Below, piece after piece: positions 14,620 through 15,225 of a stretch of 64,000 nt of DNA. The position numbers and the translations under genes were made by a program. The notes under the pieces are model-generated. The model saw only the letters and a program-made list of their open reading frames with translations, was not told the origin of the DNA and made no database searches. Numbering within the stretch: the stretch's first letter is position 1; each line of letters opens with the position of its first letter. This DNA comes from the human T2T-CHM13v2.0 reference genome, Homo sapiens, in NCBI RefSeq assembly GCF_009914755.1, contig NC_060939.1, one strand, 5' to 3'.

Positions 14620-15225
14620 ACACAATTGTGTGGGTCTCATTTAATTTTTGCTGTCTTCTTTAGATGGGTAAAATTTTAATCCTCATTAGGCAGAGGAGGA
14701 AACAGGCACGGCAGTTAAGAAACTTGCTCAGAGTCAGAGGGCTCAGCTGTGGTGGTGCTAGGATCTGAATCCAGCCAGTGATCTTCATACCTTTTTTTTT
14801 TTTTTTTTTTTAAATCCGTCTCACCGTCTCAGCAGATCTTCCATTTTACAACAGCAGGTGGAAATCTGGAGGTTTTTTTTTTTTTTTTTTAGACAGAGTC
14901 TCTCTTTGTCTACCAGCCTGGAGTGCAGTGGCATGATCTCAGCTCCCTGCAACCTCTGCCTCCCAGGTTCAAGCGATTCTCCTGCCTCATCCTCCCAAGT
15001 AGCTGGGATTGCAGGCGCCCACCACCATACCCAGCTAATTTTTGTATTTTTAGTAGAGACAGGGTTTCACCATGTTGGCCAGACTGGTCTTGAACTCCTG
15101 ACCTCAAGTGATCCACCCACCTTGGCATCCCAAAGTGCTGGGATTACAGGCGCGAGCCACAATGCCCAGTCTAATTTTCATACATTTTAGTCCCATGCTT
15201 TTCTCCCTCTGTCCACAATGCTATT
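14620..15225 (-). mobile_element. MIR split by the 14792-15171 insertion
   Basis: cctcattaggcagaggaggaaacaggcacggcagttaagaaacttgctcagagtcag...ggatctgaatccag, resuming at agtcccatgcttttctcc. Confidence 0.65.
14873..15171 (-). mobile_element. AluS (Sz/Sx-like), followed on its own strand by 61 nt and a second poly(A) extending to 14792
   Basis: Reverse Alu with a T18 tail at 14873-14890; see the top finding. Confidence 0.93.

What the first reader, a model, noticed from the sequence alone, without database searches (positions are those of the whole stretch)
14779..15188. Candidate Alu 3' transduction: fossil of a complete Pol III Alu RNA (Alu-A18, 61-nt flank ending TTT, A20) inside one TSD
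Seen in sequence: on the minus strand the insert reads AluS (15171->14891), A18, then 61 non-Alu nt CCTCCAGATTTCCACCTGCTGTTGTAAAATGGAAGATCTGCTGAGACGGTGAGACGGATTT, then a second tail of A20 (14811->14792). The bases next to the Alu's own tail are not duplicated at the Alu 5' end. Instead tgatcttcatacctttt (14779-95), beyond the second tail, matches taattttcatacatttt (15172-88) at 14/17 positions, with an L1-endonuclease-like ct/aaaa nick. The whole block interrupts a MIR that resumes after it. The 61-mer has no internal TTTT and ends exactly in TTT before the poly(A). Established: Alu Pol III transcripts read through the A-tail into unique flank until the first T-run terminator, and L1 ORF2p needs a poly(A) tract to prime, normally the Alu's internal A-tail, so flanks are lost. 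Inference: this RNA terminated at UUU, was adenylated afterwards, and was reverse-transcribed from the added tail, carrying its source-locus flank. Alu-driven transductions are considered rare or contested compared with L1/SVA, and the tag could identify an ancient AluS source element.
Basis: partly seen in the sequence, partly recalled or inferred. Interest (0 to 1): 0.8.

Follow-up and report, generated by a model that had tools for sequence, protein, structure and literature searches.

The report
Alu carrying a chr17 flank tag
An old Alu insertion in a TTC23 intron carries, behind its own A-tail, a 61-base copy of the unique DNA that follows another Alu's tail on chromosome 17, which makes it a rare, traceable candidate for Alu-driven 3' transduction, although the parent Alu cannot be confirmed.

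Summary
On the minus strand lie a full-length Alu (15171->14891), A18, 61 non-repeat bases, and A20. One 14/17 target-site duplication at a ct/aaaa site bounds the block.

New here: the 61-mer has one relative in the human T2T genome, at chr17:2.70 Mb. There the sequence begins at the 3' end of an Alu A-rich tail, at that Alu's own target-site duplication (12/12 and 37/41 matches). The homology ends at TTCTT, the first weak Pol III terminator motif downstream. A T2CT2 motif gave 15% termination in vitro. So the 61-mer looks like the 3' trailer of a chr17 Alu Pol III transcript.

Against a simple parent-offspring story:
- The full Alu now at chr17 differs from the chr15 Alu at subfamily-level sites.
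- Only a left-arm remnant beside it could be the parent, and that cannot be tested.
- There is no T4 run for 682 bases.

My odds: true single-RNA Alu 3' transduction about 0.5; trailer joined to an unrelated Alu, by template switch or nested insertion, about 0.3.

Alu transduction is contested in print: 386 called in a 2021 preprint, none confirmed among AluY in 2024. Primate orthologues would settle this case.

The parts
15172..15188 (-). 5' copy of the target-site duplication (aaaatgtatgaaaatta), preceded by ct: an L1-endonuclease-like ct/aaaa site
   Evidence: (family D7)
14891..15171 (-). Full-length Alu body (281 nt) starting at Alu position 1. It is 90.5% identical to a consensus of the 20 aligned Alu sequences (the focal Alu, 15 other window Alus, 4 chr17 Alu sequences). 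S-type by recall.
   Evidence: (Metazoa_SRP hits on both arms)
14873..14890 (-). The Alu's own A-tail, A18, with no target-site duplication behind it
   Evidence: best 5/13
14812..14872 (-). 61-nt non-repeat segment. It is a copy of chr17 (T2T) sequence that starts at the target-site duplication behind an Alu tail and ends at a TTCTT motif. It contains an 8-nt tandem duplication (14816-14831).
14792..14811 (-). Second A-run, A20. Its last 4 A belong to the target-site duplication. It is not templated by the chr17 locus.
14779..14795 (-). 3' copy of the target-site duplication (aaaaggtatgaagatca), 14/17 with the 5' copy
14636..14779 (+). Old interspersed repeat (MIR by recall) into which the block inserted; left part
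   Evidence: E 1.3e-12, profile positions 35-183; E 5.3e-10
15213..15224 (+). Possible resumption of the same repeat: an 11/12 collinear motif, not significant on its own
   Evidence: E 1.8

Best explanation
The block is a fossil of one L1-mediated retrotransposition of an Alu Pol III primary transcript that kept its whole 3' trailer. In outline:
- An S-type Alu at chr17:2.70 Mb (T2T), minus strand, was transcribed from its internal promoter.
- Transcription ran through its A-tail and its own 3' target-site duplication, then through about 45 more bases of unique flank.
- Pol III stopped at a weak T-rich terminator. Today that spot reads TTCTT at the source and TTT in the copy.
- The RNA then received a non-templated poly(A).
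- L1 ORF2p primed on this new tail at a ct/aaaa nick in the TTC23 intron and copied the trailer, the internal A-tail and the full Alu.
- The result is Alu-A18-61mer-A20 inside one target-site duplication.

Shown: the anatomy; the unique chr17 origin of the 61-mer; and that both of its ends coincide with the ends of an Alu transcription-unit trailer.

Inferred: Pol III as the polymerase; adenylation after termination; a single RNA; and that the parent was the Alu of which only the left arm (A1) survives at chr17, later disrupted by the nested full Alu (A2).
For: (1) One target-site duplication encloses everything, and there is none after A18.

(2) The 61-mer is single-copy apart from chr17:
- 2 of 2 candidates scored, self and chr17.
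- The 246-nt chr17 flank finds only itself and the chr15 61-mer.
- A 27-mer with up to 3 mismatches finds 2 places in 3.1 Gb and 0 with the reversed control.

(3) At chr17 the homology starts exactly at the Alu's target-site duplication. 61-mer nt 2-13 match the 5' duplication copy 12/12. Nt 7-47 match the sequence right behind the A-rich tail 37/41, in the same orientation.

(4) The homology ends at TTCTT, at +52-56 after the tail. This is the first motif from the set of Pol III terminators tested by Orioli et al. The next is at +492, and the first T4 at +682. T2CT2 gave 15% termination in vitro (PMC3141230, passages). Alu Pol III transcripts are described as carrying unique trailers up to the first canonical or non-canonical terminator (PMC4333407, passages).

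(5) The chr15 Alu starts at Alu position 1, as a Pol III transcript would.

(6) chr17 is the native site. There the sequence continues into unique DNA on both sides, with no A-run.

(7) The 10% divergence of the tag (4/41) fits the roughly 9.5% divergence of the Alu from the consensus of the aligned Alus.
Against: - The full Alu now next to the chr17 trailer (A2) is not closer to the chr15 Alu than unrelated Alus. It is 83.3% identical, 10th of 19, in a range of 73.7-86.5%. It shares 6 non-consensus columns, against 2-12 for the others.
- A2 differs at subfamily-level sites. It reads GGCGCATGCC and CCATTGC, where the chr15 Alu reads GGTGGGCGCC and CCACTGC. The G state is seen in 6 of 19 aligned Alus and the T state in 3 of 19.
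- The only other candidate parent (A1) is a left arm without a right arm. It shares no private changes with the chr15 Alu, so parentage is untestable.
- There is no canonical T4 at the source.
- The last 12-14 nt of the 61-mer align poorly to chr17.
- No sibling copies exist.
- Polyadenylation of an Alu Pol III transcript has no direct support here.
- Composites of the form Alu-An-X-An inside one duplication also arise by other routes. One with an L1 3' end lies 1 kb away in the same chr17 locus, and 452 Alu/LINE-1 chimeras are reported (PMC13174262, section 12).
Confidence: 0.5

Rival explanations
1. Two RNAs or two events. The 61-mer with its poly(A) is the 3' end of a chr17 transcript that included the chr17 Alu's A-tail. 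That transcript could be a Pol III read-through from A2 or any other transcript. It became joined to an unrelated Alu inside the A-run. Either ORF2p switched template from the chr17 RNA's A-tract to the A-tail of another Alu RNA (a chimeric insertion), or a 5'-truncated retrocopy of the chr17 RNA inserted into the A-tail of an Alu already resident at chr15, with an all-A duplication that cannot be seen.
For: - It explains why the chr15 Alu does not match A2.
- Chimeric Alu plus 3'-partner insertions inside one duplication are documented: 452 Alu/LINE-1 cases, mostly full-length sense Alus (PMC13174262, section 12).
- One such Alu-A27-L1 end-A12 composite lies in L002 itself.
- A junction within homopolymer A is a natural place for a switch or for microhomology joining.
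- The outer target-site duplication is equally expected under this reading.
Against: - It needs an extra rare step on top of the same unusual polyadenylated chr17 RNA.
- The 3' partner is not LINE-1 RNA, the usual first template.
- The junction would have to leave no non-A base from the heterogeneous chr17 tail, although that tail may have been purer then.
- A nested insertion needs truncation exactly within the roughly 40-nt tail.
Confidence: 0.3
2. The 61-mer is an independent retrocopy of a polyadenylated transcript from an Alu-free chr17 allele. It was joined to, or inserted behind, the chr15 Alu at an AAAA run. The chr17 Alu landed later, by coincidence, at the same AAAA, which is also a good L1 endonuclease site.
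For: - The 61-mer reads as the uninterrupted pre-insertion sequence and matches the 5' duplication copy 12/12, better than the present 3' copy.
- A TATAAA hexamer lies 28 nt upstream of the point where homology ends at chr17.
- Both events prefer A-runs.
Against: - It requires an Alu to insert later in the same orientation at the very base where the copy begins.
- It gives no reason for the copy to end at the first T-rich terminator-like motif.
- No evidence was obtained for a Pol II transcript on that strand. By recalled gene coordinates the strand is antisense to the host gene. only place the locus between a CLU-domain exon at 2.587 Mb (-) and RapGAP exons at 2.884-2.887 Mb (+).
Confidence: 0.08
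3. Capture without target-primed reverse transcription. A 61-nt chr17-derived fragment was pasted into a long (about A38) tail of a normal Alu during double-strand break repair, so that A18 and A20 are the two halves of one tail.
For: Both A-runs are pure and of similar length. The outer target-site duplication would be that of the Alu alone.
Against: It does not explain why the fragment starts at the chr17 Alu tail and ends at a T-rich motif. No filler or microhomology is visible at the 3' junction.
Confidence: 0.05
4. Chance or family-level similarity. On this reading the 61-mer and the chr17 sequence are unrelated members of an old repeat family.
For: On the plus strand the 61-mer holds a 10-nt motif that resembles part of the MIR profile (-3.2 bits, E 1.4).
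Against: - Only two places in the genome lie within 3 mismatches of a 27-mer.
- The 246-nt chr17 flank is otherwise single-copy.
- The MIR profile gives no hit at E<=10 to the 61-mer or to 1 kb of chr17.
- BLAST E is 1.1e-6 genome-wide, plus the separate 12/12 match.
Confidence: 0.02

Closest known systems
L1 and SVA 3' transduction
   Same: Element, own A-tail, unique source-locus flank that begins with the source's target-site duplication, a second poly(A), and one new target-site duplication. The source is traceable by the tag (signature as drawn in PMC3024322, passages).
   Different: Those are Pol II transcripts that skip a weak poly(A) signal and use a downstream one. Here the element is an Alu. 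The tag ends at a T-rich Pol III-type stop with no AATAAA, so the second tail needs another origin.
Reported Alu-driven transductions: AluSx3-WaluSat, 386 'Alu 3'' calls in CHM13, and one Alu monomer with a short 3' flank
   Same: An S-type Alu carries a short (64-nt there, 61-nt here) flank inside target-site duplications (bioRxiv 10.1101/2021.07.12.451456, section 7). That preprint also notes that 231 of 700 offspring do not share the parent's subfamily label. The monomer case is cited by Halabian et al.; I did not see that paper itself.
   Different: This chr15/chr17 pair is not named in any text I could read. A later preprint by overlapping authors confirmed none of 633 candidates among 118,489 full-length AluY. 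It flagged only gaps over 70 nt and did not study AluS (10.1101/2024.04.29.591526, whole text).
Alu/LINE-1 chimeric insertions (template switch or RNA ligation)
   Same: A full-length sense Alu with its A-tail lies 5' of a second poly(A)-ended segment, inside one target-site duplication at an endonuclease motif (PMC13174262, section 12). An example lies in L002.
   Different: The 3' partner here is not LINE-1. It is a single-copy sequence that, at its source, is itself the trailer of an Alu.
T+ SINEs (B2, Dip, Ves): Pol III transcripts polyadenylated after the terminator
   Same: The order is body, hexamer, short T-rich terminator, then non-templated poly(A). Copies keep a rudimentary terminator before the tail (PMC8466645 and PMC3575423, passages).
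   Different: Alu is a T- SINE. There is no AATAAA, only TATAAA at chr17 and TGTAAA in the copy. The beta and tau signals needed in T+ SINEs were not looked for. TTCTT/TCTT is at best a weak stop.

Membership tests
Retroelement 3' transduction (criteria of Halabian et al. 2024 for Alu) | Element, extra DNA and a second poly(A) bounded by one target-site duplication | tested here: met
   14/17 duplication at zero offset; 10/13 outside the AAAA; 275 of 20000 random 40-mers reach this; none after A18
Retroelement 3' transduction (criteria of Halabian et al. 2024 for Alu) | Extra DNA maps to another locus directly downstream of an element of the same kind, in the same orientation, starting within 20 nt, at >=90% identity over >=30% of its length | tested here: met
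   chr17:2700629-2700669, 37/41 (90.2%), plus 12/12 to the 5' duplication copy. It starts at the tail end of an Alu. It is the only other hit in the genome.
Retroelement 3' transduction (criteria of Halabian et al. 2024 for Alu) | Run of at least four T just downstream of the transduced DNA at the source | tested here: not met
   First T4 at +682. At the spot itself there is only TTCTT, a T2CT2 motif, which gave 15% termination in vitro in another context. The ancestral state is unknown.
Retroelement 3' transduction (criteria of Halabian et al. 2024 for Alu) | Source and offspring belong to the same subfamily | tested here: not met
   Not met for the full Alu A2, which differs at two subfamily-level sites and has no shared private changes. 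For the left-arm remnant A1 the test is uninformative.
Retroelement 3' transduction (criteria of Halabian et al. 2024 for Alu) | Empty orthologous site with one duplication copy; all-or-none presence of the whole block | not testable with these tools
   No other primate genome is held (one search states that G000 has no relatives). The only proxy is the old repeat being continuous across the site, which is weak.
Chimeric retrocopy by template switching | Two RNA-derived parts in the same orientation, poly(A) at the 3' end, one target-site duplication, endonuclease-like site | tested here: met
   the same anatomy as a transduction
Chimeric retrocopy by template switching | The 3' part is the 3' end of LINE-1 or of a known polyadenylated Pol II RNA | tested here: inconclusive
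   It is not LINE-1, being single-copy. Whether a Pol II transcript ends there could not be tested. There is only a TATAAA 28 nt upstream.
T+ SINE-type polyadenylation of a Pol III transcript | AATAAA close upstream of a TCTTT or T4 terminator, followed by the tail | tested here: not met
   No AATAAA in the 61-mer or its chr17 homologue. The hexamer is TATAAA at chr17 and TGTAAA in the copy. The terminator is TTCTT at the source and TTT in the copy.

The most novel reading that the evidence does not exclude
This is a source-traceable AluS 3' transduction. A complete Pol III Alu primary transcript, trailer included, stopped at a weak T2CT2-type terminator. It was then polyadenylated and reverse-transcribed from the added tail. 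If so, Alus can occasionally behave like T+ SINEs. Short trailers, below the 70-nt cut-off of the one AluY survey I read, could then serve as barcodes that link old Alu copies to their source genes.
Probability: 0.45. Interest if true: 0.65.

Novelty: new member of a known kind. Interest (0 to 1): 0.5.

Why it matters
Whether Alus ever carry flanking DNA along is contested in print. One preprint events in this same assembly. A later one by overlapping authors confirms none among 118,489 AluY.

This case has three features that an expanded A-tail or a chance duplication cannot give:
- The tag is single-copy.
- It starts at the source Alu's target-site duplication.
- It ends at the first terminator-like motif.

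If it is a single-RNA event, three things follow:
- The whole Pol III primary transcript can be a template for retrotransposition.
- A Pol III Alu RNA must have received a poly(A) tail after termination.
- Short trailers could identify ancient Alu source genes, which are almost unknown.

If it is a template-switch product, it extends the known Alu/LINE-1 chimeras to an Alu-trailer partner. No effect on TTC23 is indicated.

Tried and rejected
- **Pairwise identity as a parent test.** Unrelated Alus of the same age are expected to be as similar as parent and offspring, and they are. Only subfamily-level sites were informative.
- **Other copies of the flanking old repeat.**
  - blastn and nhmmer with the window's own flanks found only self matches.
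  - A genome search with the left flank found only itself.
  - Profiles seeded from two recalled 21-nt motifs worked for the left flank only. Of 504 exact hits, 25 loci were used. Of 47 hits with up to 1 mismatch, 30 loci were used.
  - The 3' half of the first profile was uninformative.
- **The 61-mer as part of the local old repeat or of a repeat family.** Rejected.
- **Transfer from chr15 to chr17.** Rejected. At chr17 the sequence is embedded in unique DNA without A-runs.
- **A Pol II transcript containing the Alu, copied as one piece.** Set aside, because the copy begins at Alu position 1.
- **Gene context at chr17.** Domain searches place a CLU-domain exon at 2,587,133-2,587,711 (-) and RapGAP exons at 2,883,665-2,886,715 (+). 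The gene names, and the idea that the locus lies antisense in the first intron of the RapGAP gene, are recalled and untested.
- **Papers.** The journal version of the T2T repeat paper was not held. The Alu-monomer paper was seen only as a citation. bioRxiv supplements are closed, so I could not check whether Table S13 of 10.1101/2021.07.12.451456 lists this pair.
- **Searches for print reports of Alu transduction.**

Full report
**What is there.** On the minus strand of the window the sequence reads as follows:
- aaaatgtatgaaaatta (15188->15172)
- a full-length Alu starting at its first base (15171->14891)
- A18 (14890->14873)
- 61 bases that are not Alu (14872->14812)
- A20 (14811->14792)
- ggtatgaagatca

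Rfam's SRP model hits both Alu arms, as expected for an Alu. The two flanking 17-mers match at 14/17. The repeat finder reports the core as 13/15 (family D7). Leaving out the AAAA that merges with the tail, 10 of 13 positions match at zero offset on both sides. With 49 offset combinations allowed, 275 of 20000 random window 40-mers do as well. Directly behind A18 the best match is 5/13. The 61-mer has no TTTT and ends in TTT. According to the hub's table, the block lies in a TTC23 intron, in the gene's orientation.

The claim that the block splits an old repeat is only half shown. A profile from 30 genomic copies matches the left flank 14636-14779 (E 1.3e-12). On the right only an 11/12 collinear motif is found (E 1.8). 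An earlier profile from 25 loci gave 27.4 bits for the empty-site model against 25.8 for the occupied site.

**Where the 61-mer comes from.** The window's genome, human T2T, could be searched.
- The 61-mer has one other match, chr17:2,700,629-2,700,669 on the minus strand, at 90% over nt 7-47.
- The reciprocal search with 246 nt of the chr17 flank finds only itself and the chr15 61-mer.
- A 27-mer from the 61-mer with up to 3 mismatches occurs at just these two places in 3.1 Gb, and 0 times in the reversed control.

So this is a specific copy, not a repeat family. The old-repeat profile does not hit it.

Read on its minus strand, the chr17 locus runs as follows:
- unique DNA ending in gtctaaaaCTCCAGATTTCC
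- an Alu left arm without a right arm (A1, L002 2000-1866)
- a full Alu (A2, L002 1865-1582)
- a 39-nt heterogeneous A-rich tail
- GGATTTCC, followed by AGCTGCTGTTATAAAATGGAAGATCCGCTAAGACAGG...

61-mer nt 2-13 equal the 5' copy of that Alu's target-site duplication (12/12). Nt 7-47 equal the sequence directly behind the tail (37/41). The tag therefore begins exactly where an Alu read-through transcript leaves the A-tail. chr17 is the native site: the sequence runs on into unique DNA on both sides and has no A-run where the chr15 copy has A20.

**Where it ends.** In the chr17 flank the first motif from the terminator set tested by Orioli et al. is TTCTT at +52-56, where homology with the 61-mer fades. 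That set comprises T>=4, T3VT2, T2VT3, T3VT, TVT3 and T2VT2. The next motif is at +492, and the first T4 at +682. T2CT2 terminated 15% of transcripts in vitro in a tRNA gene context (PMC3141230, passages). Alu Pol III transcripts are described as carrying unique trailers up to the first canonical or non-canonical terminator (PMC4333407, passages). Both ends of the 61-mer thus coincide with the ends of the trailer of an Alu transcription unit. I take this as the strongest argument that the RNA was a Pol III read-through product. The last 12-14 nt align poorly, partly because of an 8-nt tandem duplication in the copy. The coincidence is therefore good only to within a few bases.

**The weak point: who was the parent?** I aligned 20 sequences: the chr15 Alu, 15 other near-full-length Alus from the window (16 of 25 blast matches were near full length, one being the focal Alu itself), and 4 chr17 Alu sequences.
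- A2 is 83.3% identical to the chr15 Alu, 10th of 19, in a range of 73.7-86.5%.
- A2 shares 6 non-consensus columns with it, all common CpG-type states, against 2-12 for the others.

Pairwise identity cannot decide the question, because a young parent and its offspring decay independently. Two subfamily-level sites do differ.
- A2 has GGCGCATGCC, where the chr15 Alu has GGTGGGCGCC. The G state is found in 6 of 19 aligned Alus.
- A2 has CCATTGC, against CCACTGC. The T state is found in 3 of 19, all three on chr17.

A2 shares 12 non-consensus columns with the next Alu about 770 nt downstream, and the chr15 Alu has 2 of these. That pair is the most similar of 171 pairs in the right arm, at 91.2%. 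This means either a shared subfamily or local gene conversion.

I conclude that A2 is not a credible parent unless it was converted. A1 could be the parent only if it was once a full dimer. Its left arm neither supports nor contradicts this (83.5% over 133 nt; 3 shared columns).

**Mechanism and rivals.**

*Best reading (about 0.5): a single Alu Pol III RNA was copied by L1 ORF2p from an added poly(A).* The RNA comprised body, A-tail, source target-site duplication and trailer. Adenylation after termination is inferred from the absence of an A-run at chr17. A TATAAA lies 28 nt upstream of TTCTT at chr17, and reads TGTAAA in the copy. That layout recalls T+ SINEs, whose Pol III transcripts are polyadenylated after a TCTTT or T4 stop (PMC8466645 and PMC3575423, passages). 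But there is no AATAAA here, and Alu is a T- SINE. This link is speculation.

*Main rival (about 0.3): the same kind of chr17 RNA, joined within the A-run to an unrelated Alu.* The join could be a template switch or a nested insertion into a resident Alu's tail. This fits the subfamily mismatch. Such composites exist: 452 Alu/LINE-1 chimeras inside one duplication are reported (PMC13174262, section 12). One Alu-A27-L1 end-A12 composite with a 16/16 duplication lies 1 kb away in L002.

*Minor rivals:*
- A retrocopy from an Alu-free chr17 allele, followed by a coincidental Alu insertion at the same AAAA (0.08).
- Break-repair capture into one long tail (0.05).
- Chance similarity (0.02).

**What is known.** The 2021 T2T repeat preprint reports 386 highest-confidence 'Alu 3'' transductions among 1,182,410 Alus in this same assembly. 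It also reports the AluSx3-WaluSat case, and notes that 231 of 700 offspring differ in subfamily label from their parents (10.1101/2021.07.12.451456, section 7). I could not see its Table S13, so this pair may already be listed there. A 2024 preprint by overlapping authors says no systematic study existed. It examined 118,489 full-length AluY, flagged 633 candidates (gaps over 70 nt only), traced 24, and confirmed none. It left AluS and AluJ open (10.1101/2024.04.29.591526, whole text). An older pipeline found 23 putative AluYa5 cases, none traceable (PMC3024322, passages).

The kind is therefore known but contested. This instance is a well-anchored AluS example whose tag was too short for the 2024 filter.

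**Verdict.** The 61-mer is almost certainly a retro-copied Alu trailer from chr17 (about 0.8 for Pol III trailer origin). It is about even odds that it travelled on the same RNA as the Alu in front of it. Primate orthologues of both loci would decide. They were not available here.

Noticed in passing
L002:326-840 (chr17, minus strand): A second composite lies inside one perfect 16/16 target-site duplication (GACTAATTTGACTTTT). It consists of a full Alu, A27, about 150 nt that I recognise by recall as a LINE-1 3' end, and A12. This is the Alu/LINE-1 chimera or nested-insertion class. It shows how easily Alu-An-X-An structures arise without transduction.
   Followed up: partly
window 14812-14822 versus L002:1547-1537: The last 8 nt of the 61-mer (ACGGATTT; 10 of 11 with the neighbouring bases) also equal the junction between the chr17 A-rich tail and the 3' target-site duplication copy. 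I estimate the chance of this at about 0.01. I have no explanation; it may hint at a more complex history of the chr17 3' duplication copy.
   Followed up: partly
window 14816-14831: There is an 8-nt tandem duplication (GAGACGGT/GAGACGGA on the minus strand) inside the 61-mer that is absent at chr17. It blurs the alignment of the tag's 3' end.
   Followed up: no
L002:1582-2000 (chr17): The putative source site holds an Alu left arm directly followed by a full Alu, with an ATACA-containing tail. Possible histories are a nested insertion into the first Alu's A-rich linker or tail, loss of a right arm, or a single chimeric event. The order of events is unresolved.
   Followed up: partly
L002:1582-1865 and L002:536-812: Two neighbouring same-strand Alus on chr17 form the most similar right-arm pair of 171 pairs (91.2%). 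They share two rare non-CpG variants. This means either a shared subfamily or local gene conversion between neighbours.
   Followed up: partly
window 14986-15037: Rfam mir-1268 matches inside the Alu right arm at 46 bits, below its gathering score of 83. This is ordinary Alu-derived similarity, not a separate gene.
   Followed up: no
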